Shown here: piece by piece, positions 7,493 to 55,800 of the stretch
Layout: every line of letters starts with the position of its first letter
Numbering within the stretch: position 1 is the stretch's first letter
DNA from: Sphingomonadaceae bacterium
GTDB taxonomy: Bacteria; Pseudomonadota; Alphaproteobacteria; Sphingomonadales; Sphingomonadaceae
Reading direction: 5' to 3'
Length of the DNA: 64,000 bases
Assembly: GCA_947473355.1 (NCBI GenBank)
Contig: CANJCQ010000011.1
Span: forward strand, 404 to 64,403
The notes under the pieces: generated by a model
Seen by the model: the letters and a program-made list of their open reading frames with translations, nothing else
Databases searched by the model: none
What the model was told of the DNA's origin: nothing
Translations under genes and position numbers: made by a program

Positions 7493-7603
7493 CCGTCATC
7501 CCCGCGAAGGCGGGGACCCATCACCTGCCATTGCGCCACGCACTAACGCTCTCGTTGTGCGACCATCTTCGGAGTTGGGTCCCCGCTTTCGCGGGGATGA
7601 CGG
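7493..7603. repeat. Palindromic doublet, family A copy 1
   Basis: CCGTCATCCCCGCGAAGGCGGGGACCCA (7493-7520) inverted with TGGGTCCCCGCTTTCGCGGGGATGACGG (7576-7603), one mismatch. Lies between convergent genes. Confidence 0.92.
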
Positions 7604-10737: not shown

Positions 10738-10774
10738 GTTCTCCTCCCGCACAGGGTCCCTACCCAACCATCAT

Positions 10775-10914
10775 CGTCACCCTGAACTTGTTTCAAGGTC
10801 CATTTTTCCTCGCACGCGGAGCTTGGTAATCAAGAGTAAACCTCGCGGTTGGGGTTTGTCCTGCTGGCTCCGGGCGCGCGGCATGATGGACCATGAAACA
10901 AGTTCAGGGTGACG
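10775..10914. repeat. Palindromic doublet, family B copy 1 (140 bp)
   Basis: CGTCACCCTGAACTTGTTTCAAGGTCCAT (10775-10803) inverted with ATGGACCATGAAACAAGTTCAGGGTGACG (10886-10914); 82-bp spacer. Confidence 0.92.
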
Positions 10915-11025
10915 AAAATGGGGTTGGTGGATCGCAGCCCTGTCGCAGCATCGTTGGGATTGCACTGGCCTGCCATCGACCTATAGTTTCAAGTCAAACA
11001 ACCAAGCAATTTGGAGAGGAAACCC

Positions 11026-15388: not shown

Positions 15389-15462
15389 GGCGTTCTCCTC
15401 AACCTCTCGCCAAACTCTCGCTTGCGCCGGGCGATTACTACTTAGACCGACCTAACCATCAT

Positions 15463-15602
15463 CGTCACCCTGAACTTGTTTCAGGGTCCATTTCTCCGCA
15501 CCTCCAGAGCTCGGCTTGCATCACCAGGCCTCGAGGTTTGCTTCTGTCGTCATGGCACCTTGCTGGCTGCGTGATGGACCCTGAAACAAGTTCAGGGTGA
15601 CG
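15463..15602. repeat. Palindromic doublet, family B copy 2 (140 bp)
   Basis: Perfect 29-bp inverted repeat CGTCACCCTGAACTTGTTTCAGGGTCCAT (15463-15491) / (15574-15602); 82-bp spacer. Confidence 0.93.
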
Positions 15603-15625
15603 AAAACGAGAAGCTAGTGGAGTGC

Positions 15626-18520: not shown

Positions 18521-18628
18521 CGTCATCCCCGCGCAAGCGGGGACCTATCACCGGGGTTGGCGGCCTGATCGAAGCATTGTGCAAGACGCGCCGTAACGAG
18601 ATGGGTCCCCGCTTGCGCGGGGATGACG
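18521..18628. repeat. Palindromic doublet, family A copy 2
   Basis: CGTCATCCCCGCGCAAGCGGGGACCTATC (18521-18549) inverted with GATGGGTCCCCGCTTGCGCGGGGATGACG (18600-18628). Lies between convergent genes. Confidence 0.92.
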
Positions 18629-22244: not shown

Positions 22245-22685
22245 TTAAGGGCTGGGCATGCTCTCGCCCGGCTGCATGATTTCAAACACATTGCCGTCCG
22301 GATCGCGGCAATAGGCGGCGCGCATGGAGCCGCCGTTGAAGGTCTGCAGCCGGCCATGGATCGGCACGCCTGCGGCCTTGAGCTTGTCAAAGGTCACCTG
22401 GACATCGTCGACAGTCAGCCCGAAGTGCGAAATGCCCCGGTCGCTGACCGGGTAGGCGGGATCCTTGGGCTTGCTATCCGCGAACTCGAACAGCTCGAGC
22501 CACAGATTGCCGCCTGCGATCATGCACATGCGGCCATGCACTTCGGGAATGTCCATGATTTCGGAGAACTGCGGCCCGCTGAACGGAAATGGATCGCCGA
22601 GCGGCTCCATGCCGAACATCTCGCGGTAGAAAGCCATTGAGCGGTCGAGGTCGGTGACCGATATGCCGACGTGATTGAATTTCAT
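22245..22685 (-). CDS. VOC (glyoxalase/bleomycin resistance) family protein
   Basis: NHVGISV.DL.RS..FY, HFGL.V, Y.RDPDGN.FE. Confidence 0.9.
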   Translation of the reverse strand: MKFNHVGISVTDLDRSMAFYREMFGMEPLGDPFPFSGPQFSEIMDIPEVHGRMCMIAGGNLWLELFEFADSKPKDPAYPVSDRGISHFGLTVDDVQVTFDKLKAAGVPIHGRLQTFNGGSMRAAYCRDPDGNVFEIMQPGESMPSP

Positions 22686-22729
22686 GGGTTATCTCCAAGT
22701 GCAACCTACACAATAATCGCCATAACTCG

Positions 22730-22888
22730 CTCCTCTCCCCTTGCGGGAGAGGAAAGTGCAGCTTGCGGACTTGTCCGCTAGCGTAGCTTGGAGAGGGGGC
22801 CGCGAGGAACGTAGCTCGCCCCCTCTCCAACTACGGCTAGGCAACAAGTTGCCAAGCCTTCGTATCCTCTCCCGCGAGGGGAGAGGAG
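22730..22888. repeat. Compound palindromic element, family C copy 1 (159 bp)
   Basis: Terminal arms CTCCTCTCCCCTTGCGGGAGAGGA / TCCTCTCCCGCGAGGGGAGAGGAG with internal hairpins (GCGGACTTGTCCGC, GCAACAAGTTGC, GAGAGGGGGC..GCCCCCTCTC). Collinear with 52623-52806 in reverse orientation. Confidence 0.9.
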
Positions 22889-22913
22889 TGGTTTGTTCTC
22901 GTCGGCTTCCGCA

Positions 22914-23756
22914 TCAAAGCGCCCGAGAAGTTCGGAAGTGTTCAAGGACTTGCGCGCCATTCGGCCCCGCGGTCATCGCCGGGATGGCGCTGCCGCGCGT
23001 GGCGATCAGCACGTCGTCCACCGCGAAGCTCTTGCCGCCTGCCTCGATCGATCCTTCCATCACCAGCGCGCCATAGGCATCGCCGCGCGTGCAGGCCGCG
23101 ATGTTCTCGCCCGGCGCCAGATGGGTGAGGCGGACATGGCCGCGATCGGGATCACCCGGATCGCCGAGCTCCCACGACCAGCCAGGCGCCAGCTTGCTCT
23201 TCCACATGCCGTCCGCCCCTTCGAGCGACAGGCTGGAGTTGCCCTCGTTGCGCTTGTTGACCCCCTCGCGCGGCTTGATCACATGATTGCCCAAGCGCAG
23301 GGTCGGGTGGTCGTGGTATTCGGGGCCATAGCCGCCGGGCGACAGCGCGACATCGGCGAATATCTCCAGCAGGCGGCATCCCGAGGGGCCGATCAGCAAG
23401 GGGCCATATTCGATCGACGGCGCAGCGACGAAGACATCGCCGGGCTGCATATACCAGTCGCCGATCATGCAGCCACCCTCGACTATGACGACGACCGTCC
23501 AGCAATCGTGCCAGTGCATCGGCCACAACTGATTGGGCGGCATGCGGATATCGGGCACCAGCATCTGGAAACTATCGCTGGCTTCACCCAGCATGATGCT
23601 CTCGCTCCAGGTCTGGCCGCCGGGGATTTCATTGGTGACCACGTTGTCCGGCCCCGCCTTGCCGCCGGGATAGAGCCGCCGCAGCGTCACGCCGGGGGCG
23701 ATCTCCTCGACATGAAAGGGTTTCTCCGGGACCATCGATCGGACTGGGGCGTTCAT
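22914..23756 (-). CDS. Cupin-fold (ChrR-like) protein of unknown function
   Basis: P.HWHD.WT....VEGG...G....QPGD....P....YGP cupin pattern; a second degenerate cupin in the C-terminal half. Confidence 0.6.
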   Translation of the reverse strand: MNAPVRSMVPEKPFHVEEIAPGVTLRRLYPGGKAGPDNVVTNEIPGGQTWSESIMLGEASDSFQMLVPDIRMPPNQLWPMHWHDCWTVVVIVEGGCMIGDWYMQPGDVFVAAPSIEYGPLLIGPSGCRLLEIFADVALSPGGYGPEYHDHPTLRLGNHVIKPREGVNKRNEGNSSLSLEGADGMWKSKLAPGWSWELGDPGDPDRGHVRLTHLAPGENIAACTRGDAYGALVMEGSIEAGGKSFAVDDVLIATRGSAIPAMTAGPNGAQVLEHFRTSRAL

Positions 23757-23822
23757 GGTTCACTCTCCTTGGGCGGCTCTTGTGGCCTGATGCCGCATCA
23801 TGGCCTGCTGTTGAGACAAGAA

Positions 23823-23879
23823 TCAATGGGAGATTGAACTTCAAAGGGAGATTGACAGGGCCGCCTGCTCCCGCACTAT
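23823..23879 (+). promoter_or_regulatory. Tandem operator overlapping a sigma70-type promoter of the hydantoinase cluster
   Basis: TCAATGGGAGATTGA (23823-23837) and TCAAAGGGAGATTGA (23841-23855). The second overlaps TTGACA (23852-23857); CACTAT at 23874-23879. Confidence 0.55.
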
Positions 23880-23924
23880 GCGCTCAACAAGGCAGGGCCA
23901 CCAAAGCGCCCGCCGGGGAGAGCA

Positions 23925-26069
23925 ATGGCAGACCGCGATATCCTGATCGGCGTCGATGTCGGCGGCACATTCACCGATGCCGTGGTGATGGTCGGCGGCG
24001 CGAGCTTCCGCGCCAAATCGCCCAGCACCTATCCCGAGATCGGGCGCGGGGTGCTGGCGGCTTGCGAGCTGGCGGCGCGCGCATCGGGGCAGGAACTGGC
24101 CGAGCTGCTGCCGCGCGTTAAGAAATTCGGGCTGGGGACGACGGCCGTGACCAATGTCATCGCCACCCGCACGGGGCTGAAGACCGGGCTCGTGACCACC
24201 AAAGGCTTCGAGGAAACCCTGCGGCTCGCGCGCGGGCGCACCAGTGAGCAGGATGGCTGGCTGATGCCGGTCGATGCACTGGTCGAGGCGCGGGCGATTG
24301 TCGGGATCGACGAGCGGATCGACCGGGACGGCGGAGTGCTCAAAGCACTCGATCCGGCCGATGTGGTCAGGGCCGGACGCTATCTGGCCGATGAGGTCGG
24401 GGTGGAGAGCATCGCCGTCTCCTTCCTGTGGTCGTTCCTCAACGAGGACCATGAGCGAGAGGCGGCGCGGCTGTTGCGGGAGGCTTTGCCGGGAATGCCG
24501 ATCTCCTCCGGGGTCGAACTGCGCCCGGTGATCCGCGAATATGAACGCACCACGCTTGCCGTGCTCAATGCCTATGCCACCGGCGCCTATCGCGGGGTCG
24601 ACGGCTTAGCTGCGCAATTGCGCGAGGCCGGCCTCGCCGCGCCTGTGCTGCTCTGCCATTCGGGCGGCGGTGCGATTTCGGTCGAACAGGCGCGCGAGCA
24701 GCCGGTGTGGCTGGCGGCTTCCGGCCCGGCGGCAGGGGTTGCCGCAGCGGCGCGGATTGCGCGCGATGCGGGCGAGGACAAAGTTTTGACCTGCGATCTG
24801 GGCGGCACATCCTTCGATGTCGCGCATCTGGCGGATGGCGCCCCGGCGCGCACCCAGCGCGGCGACCTGATGGGGTTCTGGACAGCGCTACCGCGTGTCG
24901 ATGTCGAATCAGTGGGCGCGGGCGGCGGGTCGCTGGCCTGGATCGATGAACGCTCAATGCTGCGGGTCGGGCCAAGGTCGGCGGGCTCCTCGCCGGGGCC
25001 AGTTTGTTATGGGCGGGGCGGTACACAGGTGGCGCTGACCGATGCCTTGCTGGTGCTCGGCTATATCGATCCGGCGCGGTTTCTGGGTGGCACCATGGTG
25101 CTCGACCGCGAGGCGGCGTTGGCCGCTTGCGGCAAGCTGGGCGAGGCGCTGGGGCTGGATGCTGTCGATGCCGCCTGGGGCGTGCGCGAGATTGCTGTGG
25201 CCGAGATGGTCAAGGCGGTGCGAGCGCGGCTATCCAATCATGCGCTGGCTGCGGCGGAGCATTGTTTGGTGAGCTATGGCGGCTGTGGCGCGCTGTTTGC
25301 GGCGGAAGTGGCGAAGCTGGCGGGCATCCCCCGCGTGCTGGTTCCGGAGCTGGCCTCGGTGCTTTCCGCCTATGGCGCGGCGACGATGGATATCCGGCGC
25401 GAGCGGTTGACCACCTTGCTGATGAAGCTGCCGGGCGATGCGGATCAGATCGACCGCACTTTCGCCGCCCTGCGCGAAGCCGTGTGGCAGGATCTTGCGG
25501 CGGACGGCGTCGCGGAAGCAGACCGCGAAGTGCGCTTCGAGCTTGATATGCGCTGGTTCTTGCAGCGCTGGGAGCTGACCATTGCCGTGCCGGGCGAGCC
25601 GGTGCTGGGCGATGGCGGGGCCCAGGCCGAGGCCCTGTTCCGCGCCGAGTATCTGCGGCGGTTTGGCGCGGCATCGACGACGACTTCGGGGATTGTCGAG
25701 CTGGTCGGGATCAGGGCTGTGGGGGTTGGGCGGATGGAGGACGAAATCCTCCCCGAGCTTGCTCGGGGAGGGGGACCGCCCGCGCAGCGGGTGGTGGAGG
25801 GGAATCCGCAAAGTACCCCTCCGTCATCGCTGCGCGATGCCACCTCCCCGAGACAAGCTCGGGGAGGATCAAGCGAGCGTCCGGTCAGCCTCAGGCGTTC
25901 GCACCCGTCCGAACCTATCGAAGTTCACGACACTGCCACCCTCGCCCCCGGCGACCACTTCACCGGTCCGGCGCTGGTCGATTCATCGGACACGACAATC
26001 TGGGTGCCCAAGGGTATGACGGCCCGAGTCGATCCGAACCGCACTCTGGTTATCGAGGTCTGCACATGA
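23925..26069 (+). CDS. Hydantoinase/oxoprolinase A subunit (ATP-binding; AcxA/ApcC-like)
   Basis: GVDVGGTFTD, GTTAVTN, TTKGF.E, SGPAAG, DLGGTSFD, GAGGGS, GP.SAGS.PGPVCYG, SAYG. Contains an in-frame palindromic insert. Confidence 0.93.
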   Translation: MADRDILIGVDVGGTFTDAVVMVGGASFRAKSPSTYPEIGRGVLAACELAARASGQELAELLPRVKKFGLGTTAVTNVIATRTGLKTGLVTTKGFEETLRLARGRTSEQDGWLMPVDALVEARAIVGIDERIDRDGGVLKALDPADVVRAGRYLADEVGVESIAVSFLWSFLNEDHEREAARLLREALPGMPISSGVELRPVIREYERTTLAVLNAYATGAYRGVDGLAAQLREAGLAAPVLLCHSGGGAISVEQAREQPVWLAASGPAAGVAAAARIARDAGEDKVLTCDLGGTSFDVAHLADGAPARTQRGDLMGFWTALPRVDVESVGAGGGSLAWIDERSMLRVGPRSAGSSPGPVCYGRGGTQVALTDALLVLGYIDPARFLGGTMVLDREAALAACGKLGEALGLDAVDAAWGVREIAVAEMVKAVRARLSNHALAAAEHCLVSYGGCGALFAAEVAKLAGIPRVLVPELASVLSAYGAATMDIRRERLTTLLMKLPGDADQIDRTFAALREAVWQDLAADGVAEADREVRFELDMRWFLQRWELTIAVPGEPVLGDGGAQAEALFRAEYLRRFGAASTTTSGIVELVGIRAVGVGRMEDEILPELARGGGPPAQRVVEGNPQSTPPSSLRDATSPRQARGGSSERPVSLRRSHPSEPIEVHDTATLAPGDHFTGPALVDSSDTTIWVPKGMTARVDPNRTLVIEVCT
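25746..25869. repeat. Family C palindromic element inserted in frame within the hydantoinase A gene
   Basis: ATCCTCCCCGAGCTTGCTCGGGGAGG ... CCTCCCCGAGACAAGCTCGGGGAGGAT terminal inverted repeats; translated as ILPELARGGGPPAQRVVEGNPQSTPPSSLRDATSPRQARGG. Confidence 0.85.
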
Positions 26070-28216
26070 ATTATCACGCCAGCCGCACCGATGATCCCAT
26101 CGCGCCCGAGTTGCTGCGTTCGCGGCTGGAAGCCATCGGGCAGGAGGCAGGGGCCGCCGTCCAGCAGACGGCGATCTCGCCGATTGTCACCGAGAGCAAG
26201 GACTATTCGGTCACCATCCTCGATGCCGCAGGCTCTGTGATTTCTGCCTATGGCCTGATCGAGATTCATTATGGCGCGGTAATGCATGCGGTGCGCTCGA
26301 CGATAAAGGTGCACGGCGACTCCATTGCCGCTGGCGATGTGTTCCTCGCCAACGATCCGCATTCGGGCGGGGGCCTGCATCCGCAGGACGTGGTGATCCA
26401 GCGGCCGGTGTTTGAAGGTGGCAAGCTGGTCGCATGGGTTGCCCTGGCGGCGCACATGATGGACATGGGCGGCATGGTGCCCGGCTCCTCCGCCGTGGCG
26501 GCGACCGAGTGTTATCAAGAGGCGCTGCGCTTGCCGCCCGTCCGGCTGATCCGGCAGGGGGTGGAGTGCGACGACATCTGGAACATCTTCCGGATCAATG
26601 TGCGCAGCTCCGACCTCATCGAAATGGACATGCGCAGCCTTGTGATTGGCGGCGCGGTGGCCGAGGCCAAGCTTATCGAGCTGATCCGCGACATGGGCTT
26701 TGCGGCCTTCCAGTCGGCCAGCAGTGCGCTGCTCGCCGGGGTCGAGCGGGTGCTGCGCGAGCGTATCTCGCTGCTGGAGGACGGGCACTATTTCTCCACG
26801 GCCTGGATCGAGTGGGGCGGCGACGTGATGCGCATGCCCTGCACCATGGAAGTGCGTGGGCACAGGCTGATCTTCGATCTCACCGAAGCCCCGCCGCAGG
26901 TGCCGAGCTTCATCAATTCCAAGGAATACATCATCCGCGCCCAGATCGGCCCGCGCATGCGCCAATTGCTCGCGCCCGGCCTGCCGTTCAATCAGCCAGT
27001 GCTCGATATTGTCGAGATCATTTCCAAGCCCGGCACTTTGGTCAATTCGGTCAGTCCGGCGCCAATTGCCGCCGCGCATATGGATGCGGCGATGGCAGTG
27101 TTCACTGCGGCCGGCCAATGCATGCAGATGGCGCTGCATGCTTCGAAAAGCGCGATGGAGCGCGATCGGACGACTTCGCCGGCGCTCGCCGCCTATGGCA
27201 CTGGGCGCTGGACCTATCTCGATCATTTCGGCACGCGGCGGGTCTATACGCTGATCGATGGTGCTTTCTCTGGCAGTCCGGCGGGCGGCGAGATGGACGG
27301 GCTCGATATCAAGAGCAGCCAGACACCCGGCGGAAACCAGCTCGAATTCGCCGATGTCGAGATCCTCGAGTCAAGCTATCCGCTGCTGTTCCACGAACGG
27401 CGGGCGACGACCGGCGAGCATGGCTATGGCAAGTATCGCTCGGGCGCGGGCTGTCAGGAGAGCTTCAGCGCGCATAACACCGAGACGCTTGTCGGCAACA
27501 TGACCGGCACACGGGCGTGGTTCCCCACCGGGGGCAGCGCGGGCGGCATGCCGGGCGCCTGCATGCGCTATTTCGTCCACCGTGCGGGGGGAGAGACCGA
27601 AAAGGTCGATATCCATCAGGTCGGCCTCGCGCTCGCCCCAGGCGATGTGTTCGAGATGTTTTGCGCGAGCGGCGGCGGGTACGGTGATCCGCTTGATCGT
27701 GACGCCGAGGCCGTAGCGCGCGATCTCGCCGAGGACCGGGTCGCGCCGGAGATTGCCCGCGAGATTTACGGTGCGGTGCTGGATGCCAAGGGCGGTGTCG
27801 ATTCAGTTGCTACCGAAGCCCGGCGGGCCGAGCTGCGCCAGCAGCGGCTGCGCGATGCCGCGCCGCCGGTGCGACCTGCGCCCGATCTGGCCCCCAATTT
27901 GTCATGGGGCGACGAACCCGCATTTCCGCTCTATCCAGGCGTGATCCAGCGTGGCAATCTGGCGCTGTCGGAATATTCTGGCGCCGTGCTCGCCGTGGCG
28001 CCGGATAGCTGGCTGGATGGGTGCCCGGTGCTCGACATGGCGATTGACGATCGGGCCGGGGGCACTATCGCACGTGCCCATCTGGATCCGGCGAGCGGCC
28101 GGATGCTGTTCGTCGATGTAATCCGCAAGGGCGATGGCCCGAGCATTGAATGCCGCCCCGACAGATGGGCGAAAGCAGGACATAACCTGCCAAGAAACGA
28201 AGGAGAGAAAGCATGA
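26066..28216 (+). CDS. Hydantoinase/oxoprolinase B subunit (metal-binding) with C-terminal extension
   Basis: TAISPIVTESKDYS, GDVFLANDPH.GG.LHPQD, AHMMDMGG..PGS, YQEALRLPP, GGGYGDPL.R; ATGA overlap with subunit A. Confidence 0.93.
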   Translation: MNYHASRTDDPIAPELLRSRLEAIGQEAGAAVQQTAISPIVTESKDYSVTILDAAGSVISAYGLIEIHYGAVMHAVRSTIKVHGDSIAAGDVFLANDPHSGGGLHPQDVVIQRPVFEGGKLVAWVALAAHMMDMGGMVPGSSAVAATECYQEALRLPPVRLIRQGVECDDIWNIFRINVRSSDLIEMDMRSLVIGGAVAEAKLIELIRDMGFAAFQSASSALLAGVERVLRERISLLEDGHYFSTAWIEWGGDVMRMPCTMEVRGHRLIFDLTEAPPQVPSFINSKEYIIRAQIGPRMRQLLAPGLPFNQPVLDIVEIISKPGTLVNSVSPAPIAAAHMDAAMAVFTAAGQCMQMALHASKSAMERDRTTSPALAAYGTGRWTYLDHFGTRRVYTLIDGAFSGSPAGGEMDGLDIKSSQTPGGNQLEFADVEILESSYPLLFHERRATTGEHGYGKYRSGAGCQESFSAHNTETLVGNMTGTRAWFPTGGSAGGMPGACMRYFVHRAGGETEKVDIHQVGLALAPGDVFEMFCASGGGYGDPLDRDAEAVARDLAEDRVAPEIAREIYGAVLDAKGGVDSVATEARRAELRQQRLRDAAPPVRPAPDLAPNLSWGDEPAFPLYPGVIQRGNLALSEYSGAVLAVAPDSWLDGCPVLDMAIDDRAGGTIARAHLDPASGRMLFVDVIRKGDGPSIECRPDRWAKAGHNLPRNEGEKA

Positions 28217-52817: not shown

Positions 52818-55800
52818 TCACCCCAACCGCGCCAAGGCGGCACCCAGCCGCTCGGCCTCCGCTGCATGCATGGCATGATCGGCGCGGGCCTTTTCGACTG
52901 CCTCGGGTTTGGCCTTTTCGACAAACGAAGGATTGTTCAGGCGGCCTTCGAGTGACTTGGCCTCCTTGGTGGAAACCTCCAGCGCCTTGGCGAGGCGGGC
53001 CTTTTCGGCGGCGATATCGACCACGCCTTCCAGCGGCACGATCAGGTTGGCGTCCCCTGCGCCGATTTGCATCGCCGCACCTTGCGGGGCCGAATCGAAA
53101 CGGATCGCCGAGAGCCGGGCCAGCCGGTCGATGGCGCCGGGATTGGCCTCGATGGTGGCGCGCGTCGCAGGGCTGGGATCGGACAGGTAGGCTTCGAGCT
53201 TGGCGCCCGGCGCGATGCCGAGCTCGTTCTTGGCAGTGCGCAGGTTGCCGACCAGCGCGATCAGCCATTCGACCTCGCGCTTGGCTGCGGGATCGACTGC
53301 AGCGCCCGGCTCGGGCCACTTGGCCGTAATCAGCGGATAGTCTGCCCGCTCGCCCAAGGCCCCCCACAGCTCCTCGGTGACGAAGGGCATGAACGGGTGC
53401 AGCATGACCAGGATCTGGTCGAGCACCCAGCCGGCGACTGCCTTGGTCTCTTCATCGAACGAACCCTTGATCAGTTCGATATACCAGTCGCAGAACTGGT
53501 CCCACACGAAGTGATAGATCGTATTGGCCGCTGCATCGAAACGCAGGTCGGCCATGGCCTTGTCGAGCGCCTCGAGCGTTTCGACGACTTCGCCGATGAT
53601 CCACTTGTTGACCGCCAGCGTGGCCGGGGGCGCGGCCAGCGATGAGCTCGCCCCGATCCCGTTCGACTGGCAGAACCTTGCGGCGTTCCACAGCTTGGTG
53701 GCAAAGTTGCGATAGCCTTCGACGCGGGCCTTATCCATCTTCACGTCGCGGCCCTGGCTTTCCATCGAGGCCATGAAGAAGCGCAGCGCGTCGGCGCCGT
53801 ATTCGTCGATTAGCACCAGCGGATCGTCGACATTGCCCTTGCTCTTGGACATCTTCTGACCATCGGCAGCGCGGACCAGGCCGTGCAGGTAGAGCCGTTT
53901 CCAGGGCACCTGGCCCTGATTGAAGTGCATCCCCTGCATCGCCATGCGGGCGCACCAGAAGAACAGGATGTCGAAGCCTGAGATCAGCAGGTCGTTGGGG
54001 TAGTGGCGGCCGAGCAAACCACTTTCAGTGCCCCCCAAACCCGCTCGTGCTGAGCTTGTCGAAGCACCGCTTTGTTCTTTGGGGCTGGGCGTGTGGGGCG
54101 AAGAAAAGGACGGACCTTCGACAAGCTCAGGGCGAGCGGGGTTTTGTTCCTTGGTTTCGTCCGGCCAGCCGAGCGTGGCGAAGGGCCACAGCGCGGAGGA
54201 GAACCAGGTGTCGAGGACGTCCTCGTCTCGCCAAAGGGGGATTTGCTTGTTCTTGAGTAACTTAAGAAATTCGCTCGATGCACTCGGATCATCTTCGAAC
54301 TTAGCGCCGTTCGCATTTCGTCCCTCAATCTCGACAATCCGTTCTGCGGCTGTCTTGTAGTGAACTCGAGCAAGTTCGGTTGCCTGTTCGAATGTTTCGG
54401 CAACAAAGACTGGGTTCTTACCCAAATCGGTCTTCCAACCAGCCAGCCCAAAAACTTCTGGCTGCCGTTCATCCCAAGTGGGCCCATACCAAGCCGGTAT
54501 CCTATGCCCCCACCACAATTGCCTACTCACACACCACGGCTGGATATTCTCCATCCAGTTGAAATATGTCTTCTCCCAGCTCTTGGGGACAATCTCGATC
54601 CGCCCGTCGCGCACGGCTTCGATCGGCGGCTTGGCCAAGGTCGCCGCATCGACATACCACTGGTCGGTCAGCCACGGCTCAATCACCACGCCGCCGCGGT
54701 CGCCATAAGGCGTCTGGATGACGCGGTCCTCAGCGTCCTTTTCGGTGACTTCGCCGTCCTTGGCCGTCACGCTGAAAGTCACCAGCTGGCCCAGCGCCTT
54801 CATCCGCTCGACCACCAGCTCGCGCGCGCCGTCTGTGCCGTCGCGGCGGAAGCGGTGCAGGCCCACGAATTCCGCCGGGATCATGCTGTCCGAGGTCTGG
54901 ACCACATTGGCCTCGGCATCGAACATATTGAGCATTTCGGCGGGTTTGAACCCGGCGCGCTTGCCAACCTCGAAGTCATTGAAATCATGCCCCGGCGTGA
55001 TCTTGACCGCGCCCGAGCCCAGTTCGGGATCGGCGTGTTCGTCGGCGACAATCGGAATACGTCGCCCGGTGATCGGCTGCTCGATAAATTTGCCGATGAC
55101 CGACTGGTAACGCGGGTCTTCCGCGTTCACCGCCACGGCCATATCGGCCAGCATCGTCTCGGGCCGGGTCGTCGCAACCACGATGTGATCCGCGCCGTTC
55201 GCCAGCTTCACGCCGTCCGCCAGCGCATAGCGGAAGTGCCAGAAGTGGCCTTTCACTTCCTGCGTTTCCACCTCAAGATCGCTGATCGCGGTCTTGAGCT
55301 TGGGGTCCCAGTTGACCAGCCGCTTGTCGCGATAGATCAGCCCTTGGTTGTAGAGATCGACGAAAACCTTGACCACTGCCTTGGTGAAATGCGGGTCCAT
55401 GGTGAACTGCTCTCTCGACCAGTCCATCGAGCAACCCAGCCGCCGCAGTTGCTGCGTGATCGTGCCGCCGCTTTCTTTCTTCCATTCCCACACCTTCTCG
55501 ATGAAGGCCTCGCGGGAATAGTTGGTGCGCTTGTCCTGCGCCGCTTCAAGCTGGCGTTCGACCACCATTTGCGTGGCGATGCCGGCGTGATCCGTGCCGA
55601 CCACCCACAGCGCATCCTTGCCGCGCAGGCGCTCATATCGCACGACCACGTCCTGCAAGGTGTTGTCCAGCGCATGGCCGATATGCAGGCTGCCTGTTAC
55701 ATTGGGCGGCGGGTTGACGATAGTGAAGGGCACAGCGTCAGGGCGATCCGGGCGGAACAGCCCGTTCGTTTCCCAGTGCGCATACCACTTCGCCTCGATC

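What the first reader, a model, noticed from the sequence alone, without database searches (positions are those of the whole stretch)
25746..25869. Palindromic element translated in frame as a linker of the hydantoinase A subunit
A 124-bp element with near-perfect 26-27-bp terminal inverted repeats sits inside the open frame and encodes ILPELARGGGPPAQRVVEGNPQSTPPSSLRDATSPRQARGG. It lies between IRAVG and RPVSL, where these proteins normally have a flexible linker. It is related to the intergenic family C elements (CCTC(T)CCC..GGG(A)GAGG arms). This is RPE-style creation of new protein sequence from selfish DNA.
Basis: partly seen in the sequence, partly recalled or inferred. Interest (0 to 1): 0.62.

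Follow-up and report, generated by a model that had tools for sequence, protein, structure and literature searches.

The report
Palindromic repeat translated inside hydantoinase linker
A 124-base selfish DNA hairpin repeat, a gene-less relative of small nuclease-carrying cassettes, is read through in frame as a floppy 41-residue loop of an intact enzyme gene in a Novosphingobium genome. Related strains carry other versions of the repeat, or none, at exactly the same spot.

Summary
Window 25746-25869 is a 124-nt palindromic element (26/27-nt terminal inverted repeats; fold -97.6 kcal/mol, z -8.6). It lies in frame in hyuA (23925-26069) and encodes residues 608-648.

It is one of about 13 copies in this genome; the other 12 are intergenic. 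Its arms match those flanking a DUF559 (Vsr-like) nuclease gene on contig C5, so it is an ORF-less derivative. Each half has a TMECO/BoxC-like block order (CCTCCCC / GGGGAGG / mirror GGAGGGG) with extra hairpins.

AlphaFold2 leaves only the insert disordered (pLDDT <50 at 609-639; pTM 0.87). hyuA is under purifying selection in both lineages that carry this insert (dN/dS 0.05).

Distant orthologues, and three lineages nested inside the clade, keep a ~54-residue linker region without the element. Ten close relatives (nine in frame, one truncated) carry variants of the element there, and each variant replaces the linker core.

Between two lineages with dS 0.45, the element is the most conserved 124 nt of the 5.2-kb alignment, and all its differences lie in loops or repair a stem pair.

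Verdict: an RPE-like in-frame insertion from a different, DUF559-associated repeat family. How it moves is inferred. Expression could not be checked.

The parts
23925..26069 (+). hyuA-type gene (hydantoinase/oxoprolinase A-like subunit, 714 aa), the host of the element
   Evidence: Pfam Hydant_A_N, Hydantoinase_A and Hydant_A_C. PDB sequence relatives 6YRA and 7HK5. Fold match to acetone/acetophenone carboxylase and caprolactamase subunits, TM 0.76-0.82. dN/dS 0.05-0.13.
25746..25869 (+). 124-nt palindromic mosaic element, translated in frame as residues 608-648
   Evidence: It is the most conserved 124-nt window of the 5.2-kb alignment with L021. pLDDT <50 at residues 609-639.
25746..25771 (+). 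Left terminal hairpin T1 (AT-CCTCCCC-GAGCttGCTC-GGGGAGG): pyrimidine block plus purine block
   Evidence: Conserved in all 12 aligned copies.
25772..25802 (+). Module S1: GGGACC, a variable perfect hairpin, then GGT-GGAGGGG (the mirror of GGGGAGG)
   Evidence: 14 such units in the genome with 11 different hairpin inserts. The module occurs in 66 of 151 genomes of the family, with 0 hits for the reversed control.
25803..25815 (+). Central variable loop. In cassette relatives a DUF559 gene sits at this position.
   Evidence: Alignment of copies. Cassette at C5:36218-36700. Three of the 5 differences from L021 lie here.
25816..25842 (+). Module S2: CCCCTCC-GTCA, a variable hairpin, then TGCCA (a type-2 unit read on the minus strand)
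   Evidence: 22 type-2 units with 19 different hairpin inserts.
25843..25869 (+). Right terminal hairpin T2 (CCTCCCC-GAGacaaGCTC-GGGGAGG-AT)
26066..28216 (+). hyuB-type gene, start overlapping the hyuA stop (ATGA)
   Evidence: Pfam Hydantoinase_B, E 1.9e-109. Sequence.
22730..22888 (.).
   Evidence: Not among the BLAST hits. Similar arms flank the DUF559 gene at C25.

Best explanation
The 124-nt stretch is an ORF-less copy of a dispersed palindromic repeat family of Sphingomonadaceae.

Anatomy: it is built from two inverted units. Each unit is a terminal hairpin (CCTCCCC..GGGGAGG), then a small variable hairpin, then the mirror block GGAGGGG. The block order is that of TMECO/BoxC intrastrand-triplex motifs. 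Longer relatives carry a DUF559 (Vsr-like) nuclease gene in the central loop.

Placement: a copy became fixed in the only permissive part of hyuA, the unconserved linker before the C-terminal beta domain. There it replaced about 18-19 ancestral codons with 41-43 new ones and kept the frame.

Consequence (inferred): the ribosome reads through it and makes a Pro/Gly/Ser/Arg-rich disordered surface loop that the enzyme tolerates.

History: the filled linker has since been exchanged or re-colonised among related lineages, by local recombination, by module swapping, or by both. The element evolves as a nucleic-acid structure, not as a peptide.

Mobilisation (inferred): break-and-repair copying linked to the cognate DUF559 nuclease is the best guess. 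It is not classical transposition.
For: Shown directly:
- The palindrome and its frame.
- About 13 copies, the other 12 intergenic.
- The arms are nearly identical to those flanking the DUF559 gene at C5.
- All 7 DUF559 genes of the genome lie between inverted hairpin ends, and nuclease clades co-vary with end type.
- Y1 transposase genes are not flanked by these modules.
- The module occurs in 66 of 151 genomes and 53 of 112 genera of the family, with 0 control hits.
- Of 102 homologues with both anchors found, only the eight element-bearing proteins in that search (P0001-P0005, P0007-P0009) have a markedly expanded linker; the truncated P0006 does not.
- Nearest empty orthologue: G023, 84% identity.
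- Ten relatives (L021-L028, L036; L026 = L038) carry element variants at the same site, nine in frame and one truncated (L025).
- In a tree built without the linker, filled and empty alleles are interleaved inside a 100/100 clade.
- The 90 nt downstream of the element is closer among filled alleles than to their empty sisters (70% vs 56%; 75% vs 51%).
- AlphaFold2: pTM 0.87, with only 609-639 below pLDDT 50.
- dN/dS 0.05 at dS 0.45 between two filled lineages.
- The element shows 5 of 124 differences, all in loops or repairing a stem pair. The flanking 40 nt show 6 and 15 differences. It is the most conserved window of 5.2 kb.
- No target-site duplication at hyuA or at the uvrC-upstream copy, whose closest relative is empty.
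- No promoter-like or terminator-like site in the element and no Rfam match.
Against: - Transcription and translation of the insert were not shown.
- No nuclease activity, cut site or transposition intermediate is known for DUF559 cassettes. The nuclease could be a passenger.
- The history (one insertion spread by recombination, or several insertions) is not resolved. Most relatives are metagenome contigs, which can mis-thread repeats.
- Nucleotide conservation above the synonymous rate is not expected for neutral junk. It may mean function, or recent element-limited copying.
- Triplex formation with a 25-nt structured second loop is untested.
Confidence: 0.8

Rival explanations
1. The element has been co-opted. 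Its DNA or RNA structure (long hairpin or triplex) is kept by selection for a role in the hyuAB operon, for example pausing translation, setting mRNA processing or stability, or binding a protein. The peptide is only a by-product.
For: - It is the most conserved 124 nt of the 5.2-kb alignment between lineages with dS 0.45, and the differences avoid the stems.
- An element at an orthologous intergenic site is retained in G000 and G023, with its hairpin preserved through changes on both arms.
- Hairpin inserts vary but stay perfectly paired.
Against: - Sister lineages do well without it.
- The variants at the site differ in orientation, frame, loop length and unit type, so no single structure is conserved.
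- No terminator or promoter features.
- Perfect palindromes can be kept by templated (quasi-palindrome) correction without selection (established knowledge).
- One relative (L025) has deleted part of it.
Confidence: 0.15
2. The linker is a true insertion hot spot. Related elements entered the same site independently at least three times, through a site- or structure-specific mechanism. The alternative is one insertion later spread by recombination.
For: - Filled alleles are interleaved with ancestral-type empty alleles in the tree.
- There are at least three junction types, two orientations and two reading frames (P0009 reads DPPP; the others I/F/D-LP).
- P0006 and P0001 are sisters yet carry different element types.
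Against: - Six alleles share the same left junction GAA|(A/T)TCCTCCCC, 11 nt after the Met codon.
- Filled alleles share the 90 nt downstream, which points to transfer of a filled segment.
- In every case the same ~18 codons are missing, an unlikely coincidence for independent events unless selection on linker length is strong.
Confidence: 0.3
3. The gene is decaying and the insert is one lesion of a pseudogene. Alternatively, the arrangement is an assembly chimera at a repeat.
For: - The genome is a 141-contig draft.
- One relative (L026/L038) has a shortened hyuA (623 aa) and a truncated hyuB. Another (L025) has a deletion into the C-terminal domain.
Against: - The 714-aa frame is intact, with all three domains and start/stop overlap with hyuB.
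- dN/dS is 0.05 against an independently assembled relative with the same insert.
- Nine other independent assemblies have an element at this site.
Confidence: 0.04

Closest known systems
Rickettsia palindromic elements (RPEs; Ogata et al. 2000 Science 290:347, as summarised in PMC10969869)
   Same: A palindromic repeat of about 100-150 bp inserted in frame in a metabolic gene. It is read through as an extra peptide in a place compatible with the fold, and the host ORF is preserved.
   Different: - No sequence relation was detected.
- Only 1 of about 13 copies is inside a gene, whereas many RPE copies sit inside ORFs.
- The ends are triplex-motif-like hairpins.
- ORF-bearing relatives carry a DUF559 nuclease.
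- The insert replaces target sequence.
TMECO / BoxC / PIT intrastrand-triplex repeats (Holder et al. 2015, PMC4666352)
   Same: - Block order: pyrimidine block, loop, purine block, loop, mirror purine block.
- Frequent inverted pairs made of two unit types.
- Loci that are unusually variable between close relatives.
- Strict TMECO motifs also occur in this genome, and two flank a DUF559 gene.
   Different: - The blocks are 7 nt, not 9.
- Loop 1 extends the stem (10-11 nt).
- Loop 2 is a 20-30-nt hairpin instead of 3 nt, so the strict pattern is not met.
- The published elements are intergenic, and that paper found no mobility gene near them.
- This copy is translated.
REP/BIME and REPIN-RAYT systems
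   Same: Short palindromic units assembled into mosaic inverted pairs, dispersed mostly between genes, without target duplications, and paired with a single-copy-type enzyme gene flanked by the same units.
   Different: The flanked gene is a DUF559/Vsr-like PD-(D/E)XK nuclease, not a Y1 transposase. The genome's Y1_Tnp genes are not flanked by these modules.
MITEs (for example Correia, ERIC and Nezha elements)
   Same: Small size, terminal inverted repeats, multiple copies, a long hairpin when folded as RNA, and occasional in-frame intragenic copies.
   Different: No target-site duplication at the two sites examined. No parent insertion sequence with a transposase.

Membership tests
Rickettsia palindromic elements (RPE) | Dispersed palindromic repeat of about 100-150 bp that folds as a long hairpin | tested here: met
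   124 nt, -97.6 kcal/mol, z -8.6; about 13 copies.
Rickettsia palindromic elements (RPE) | In-frame insertion that preserves the host ORF, at a structurally permissive site | tested here: met
   pLDDT <50 only at 609-639.
Rickettsia palindromic elements (RPE) | A large share of copies lies inside protein-coding genes | tested here: not met
   12 of 13 copies are intergenic.
Rickettsia palindromic elements (RPE) | Sequence homology to the RPE families of Rickettsia | not tested
   No RPE consensus was at hand. Rfam gave no match. The host is a sphingomonad.
MITE | Terminal inverted repeats, size under about 300 bp, multiple copies | tested here: met
MITE | Target-site duplication flanking the element | tested here: not met
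   No duplication at hyuA or at the uvrC-upstream site compared with the empty L043. The flanks read YAA|ATCC..GGAT|TTR, an extension of the inverted repeat.
MITE | Derived from an insertion sequence that encodes a transposase with the same ends | tested here: not met
   The ORF-bearing relatives encode DUF559. Y1_Tnp genes lack these ends. Other transposase families were not searched.
TMECO/BoxC intrastrand-triplex motif (Holder 2015) | Pattern CCCTCNCCC N3-6 GGGNGAGGG N3 GGGNGAGGG | tested here: not met
   A regex over the genome gives 5 hits, none in the hyuA element.
TMECO/BoxC intrastrand-triplex motif (Holder 2015) | Three blocks: pyrimidine tract, complementary purine tract, mirror-repeat purine tract | tested here: met
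   CCTCCCC / GGGGAGG / GGAGGGG on each strand, conserved in all 12 aligned copies.
TMECO/BoxC intrastrand-triplex motif (Holder 2015) | Forms a stable intrastrand triplex | not testable with these tools
   Needs CD/NMR or footprinting. The structured 25-nt second loop makes it uncertain.
REPIN-RAYT | A cognate Y1 (RAYT) transposase gene flanked by the repeat units | tested here: not met
   Three Y1_Tnp matches; their flanks lack the terminal hairpins. One lone GGTGGAGGGG word lies about 440 nt upstream of the C63 gene.
DUF559-nuclease cassette with hairpin ends (a class seen repeatedly in this scan; I found no published description) | The same end modules flank a DUF559 gene elsewhere in the genome | tested here: met
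   C5:36218-36700 has ATCCTCCCC-hp-GGGGAGGGGGACCGCCCGCGTAGCGGGTGGTGGAGGGG [DUF559] CCCCTCCGTCA-hp-TGCCACCTCCCC-hp-GGGGAGGAT. All 7 DUF559 genes are flanked.
DUF559-nuclease cassette with hairpin ends (a class seen repeatedly in this scan; I found no published description) | The nuclease mobilises the ends | not testable with these tools
   The only indirect support is that nuclease clades co-vary with end families.

The most novel reading that the evidence does not exclude
The element belongs to an undescribed class of mobile DNA. In this class a minimal DUF559/Vsr-like nuclease and its triplex/hairpin ends spread by break-and-repair copying, which overwrites the target segment instead of duplicating it. 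Unconserved protein linkers act as landing pads where copies are translated, repeatedly overwritten by sibling copies, and kept intact at the nucleotide level. This would explain the linker replacement, the turnover of variants at one codon position in sister lineages, and DNA conservation above the synonymous rate.
Probability: 0.25. Interest if true: 0.8.

Novelty: new variant of a known kind. Interest (0 to 1): 0.6.

Why it matters
It is a clean case, outside Rickettsia, of selfish palindromic DNA becoming part of a working enzyme, with empty and filled alleles at hand. It adds three points.

1. TMECO/BoxC-like triplex repeats have been described as intergenic and without a partner enzyme. 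Here they can be translated, and in this genome they are consistently paired with DUF559 nuclease genes.
2. One protein linker carries different variants of the repeat in sister lineages. Such linkers may therefore behave like intergenic spacers for repeat turnover.
3. The DNA encoding a disordered loop is the most conserved stretch of the operon. This is a warning for conservation-based inference of protein function. It also gives a testable handle on what maintains these repeats.

Tried and rejected
- Rfam scan of 22500-26300 at E<=1: no family.
- Promoter/terminator scan of 25500-26200: nothing, so the hairpin is not a terminator-like site.
- The short motif CCTCCCCGAGC in the window: only the element's own four arms match exactly. 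The 1-mismatch hits are at chance level.
- In-frame copies of this family in other genes:
  - The long ORFs spanning other copies in G000 are read-through artefacts of high GC. The real genes start after the element.
  - The translated hits inspected in relatives (two of the three fetched: G023:C3 and G010:C108) are intergenic.
- Literature: 'DUF559' with 'palindromic', and 'Novosphingobium' with MITE, gave nothing relevant.
- RAYT association: rejected.
- Target-site duplication: sought at hyuA and at the uvrC-upstream site, none found. Divergence of the intergenic spacer prevents base-exact junction mapping at uvrC.
- Strict TMECO membership: rejected by pattern.
Full report
**1. Observation**

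The 124 nt at 25746-25869 read ATCCTCCCCGAGCTTGCTCGGGGAGG | GGGACCGCCCGCGCAGCGGGTGGTGGAGGGG | AATCCGCAAAGTA | CCCCTCCGTCATCGCTGCGCGATGCCA | CCTCCCCGAGACAAGCTCGGGGAGGAT. The ends are 26/27-nt inverted repeats that differ by one base, and each end is a hairpin on its own. The region folds at -97.6 kcal/mol, against -60.6 +/- 4.3 for shuffles (z -8.6).

Position 25746 opens codon 608 of ORF 23925-26069, so the element is read as ILPELARGGGPPAQRVVEGNPQSTPPSSLRDATSPRQARGG. The ORF carries the three hydantoinase/oxoprolinase A domains. Its stop overlaps the start of a Hydantoinase_B gene. The fold matches the acetone and acetophenone carboxylase, caprolactamase and N-methylhydantoinase subunits.

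**2. It is a repeat family**

The genome (4.05 Mb, 62% GC, 141 contigs; titles of related loci name Novosphingobium) holds about 13 full copies.

An alignment of 12 copies shows these parts:
- Constant: terminal hairpins T1 and T2, GGGACC..GGTGGAGGGG, and CCCCTCCGTCA..TGCCACC.
- Variable: two small hairpins, always well paired but different in sequence, and a central loop of 7-60 nt.

The genome holds 14 type-1 and 22 type-2 units, with 11 and 19 distinct hairpin inserts. All other copies are intergenic. ORFs that seem to span them are high-GC read-through, and the real genes start just after the element.

The type-1 module occurs in 66 of 151 sampled genomes and 53 of 112 genera of the family, with up to about 120 copies per genome. 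The reversed-pattern control gave no hits.

**3. What kind of repeat**

On each strand the order is CCTCCCC, loop, GGGGAGG, hairpin, GGAGGGG. That is a pyrimidine block, its purine complement and a mirror purine block. This is the logic of the TMECO/BoxC intrastrand-triplex motif (CCCTCNCCC N3-6 GGGNGAGGG N3 GGGNGAGGG; Holder et al. 2015, PMC4666352). Here the blocks are shorter and the second loop is long and structured, so the strict pattern is not met. Like TMECO pairs, the element joins two unit types in inverted orientation.

Holder et al. found no mobility gene near TMECOs. In this genome:
- All seven DUF559 (PF04480, Vsr-like) genes lie between inverted ends of this general kind.
- The gene at C5 has arms almost identical to the hyuA element.
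- The genes at C92, C8 and C35 have TMECO-type ends.
- The nucleases are only 25-54% identical, and they group according to end type.
- Y1 transposase genes are not flanked by these modules.

The hyuA element is therefore an ORF-less derivative of a DUF559 cassette. That the nuclease moves it is an inference. Earlier notes of this scan describe the same class in other genomes. I treated them as leads and re-tested the association here.

**4. Empty and filled alleles**

- Linker region (from the GxG after VELVGIRA to GPALVD): 51 aa in the truncated allele P0006, 53-59 aa in 45 homologues, and 72-83 aa in the eight element-bearing proteins P0001-P0005 and P0007-P0009 (counted from the row labels of the 54-row tree).
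- With a longer anchor (102 homologues with both anchors found): median 59 aa, and 77-88 aa in the same eight proteins P0001-P0005 and P0007-P0009.
- The nearest genome with the orthologue (G023, 84% identity) has the short linker ...MEGVE-QASAPKQSKPAAERAASP-IGTRPVSL.
- Ten relatives from independent assemblies carry a palindromic element at the same place. Nine are in frame and one is truncated (L025). They differ in terminal-loop type, unit types, loop length, orientation (P0009 is inverted) and reading frame.
- In every filled allele the element takes the place of the ~18-19-codon linker core, so it is not a pure insertion. The net gain over G023 is 22 residues.

In a tree built without the linker, a 100/100 clade contains these groups:
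- (P11 empty, (P5 filled, P12 empty))
- (P4 filled, P10 empty)
- ((P7, P8), (P9, (P2, (P1, P6)))), all filled

The empty linkers keep the ancestral R.A.P.G.R.V.L pattern, so they are not decayed elements.

The 90 nt downstream of the element is more alike among filled alleles than between a filled allele and its empty sister (70% vs 56%; 75% vs 51%). P6, the sister of P1, carries the P7/P8 type of element. P4 carries the P1/P2 type. The simplest reading is one or a few insertions, followed by lateral transfer of the filled segment and swapping of modules. Several independent hits at a hot spot remain possible.

**5. Effect on the protein**

AlphaFold2, run with a 66-sequence alignment, gives pTM 0.87 and mean pLDDT 85. 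The only segment below 50 is 609-639, between strand 591-602 and strand 650-654. The insert is therefore predicted to be a disordered loop.

hyuA is under purifying selection between P1 and P2, which both carry the insert (dN 0.022, dS 0.448, ratio 0.05). The ratio is 0.10-0.13 for more distant pairs.

**6. How the element itself evolves**

Between P1 and P2:
- The element shows 5 differences in 124 nt. Four lie in loops and one repairs a G-T pair to G-C. All five change the amino acid, and none is synonymous.
- Third-codon positions elsewhere in hyuA differ at 27%.
- The 40 nt to the left and right of the element show 6 and 15 differences.
- No 124-nt window of the 5.2-kb alignment is more conserved.

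An intergenic copy upstream of an acyl-CoA dehydrogenase gene is retained at the orthologous site in G000 and G023. One small hairpin there is changed on both arms.

So the constraint, or the copying process, acts on the nucleic acid and not on the peptide. Templated correction of quasi-palindromes (established knowledge) can explain the perfect hairpins. It does not explain the low divergence of the loops and blocks, which remains unexplained.

**7. Insertion chemistry**

No target-site duplication is seen at hyuA. None is seen at the uvrC-upstream copy either. Its closest relative (UvrC 93% identical) is empty, and in G000 the neighbouring stop codon reads TAA against TGA in the relatives. 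The flanks YAA|ATCC..GGAT|TTR merely extend the inverted repeat. This argues against a classical cut-and-paste MITE. It fits break repair or REP-like single-strand mechanisms, but no step of any mechanism is shown.

**8. Limits**

- Most relatives are metagenome contigs.
- Nuclease activity and triplex formation are untested.

**9. Verdict**

Three refinements apply: the element replaces linker sequence instead of adding to it, it belongs to a TMECO-like family associated with DUF559 nuclease genes, and it evolves under a nucleic-acid-level constraint with turnover at the site.

Noticed in passing
G000 contigs C92:3509-3823, C35:33164-33478, C8:52877-53194, C5:36305-36616, C25:34506-34793, C66:15802-16122, C3:19225-19533: All seven DUF559 nuclease genes of the genome sit between inverted hairpin or triplex-motif ends. 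Nucleases that share an end type are also the most similar to each other (47-54% against 25-35%).
   Followed up: partly
L025 (P0006), linker region: The closest relative on the tree carries a different element type. It is truncated on the right by a deletion that also removes the RPVSL...VHD strand of the C-terminal domain (linker region 51 aa). This fits the instability reported for triplex-motif loci.
   Followed up: partly
L026/L038 (P0007): In this MAG hyuA is called at 623 aa and hyuB is only 290 aa, followed directly by the amidohydrolase gene. The operon may be decaying there.
   Followed up: no
G000 C10:35913-36035 and L040:2520-2650 (G023): An element of the same family fills the spacer between a kinase-like gene and an acyl-CoA dehydrogenase gene at the orthologous site in both genomes. 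The terminal modules are nearly identical. One small hairpin stem is changed on both arms.
   Followed up: partly
G000 C67:12747-12873: The copy between a TonB-dependent receptor gene and uvrC abuts the receptor's stop codon. That codon is TAA here and TGA in the listed relatives with the same synteny, except L051 (TAA). The closest relative (L043) has an empty site.
   Followed up: partly
G000 C82:11555-11697: Another copy of the family lies immediately upstream of the start codon of a distant hyuA paralogue (33% identity).
   Followed up: no
window 7493-7603, 18521-18628, 10768-10921, 15462-15603, 54037-54143: At least three further palindromic repeat families occur in the window. One of them (54037-54143) was reported by an earlier follow-up to lie in frame in valS.
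   Followed up: no
G000 C3:18920-19640: A cluster made of a half element, a full 162-nt element and a DUF559 cassette in tandem. The DUF559 frame runs on into the right-hand end modules (...PPSRLRRATSPRQARGG).
   Followed up: partly
G000 C43:35821-36144 and C63:2471-2791: Two Y1-transposase-like genes are preceded by repeats containing TTACGGTGACA, possibly their own REP-like partners.
   Followed up: no
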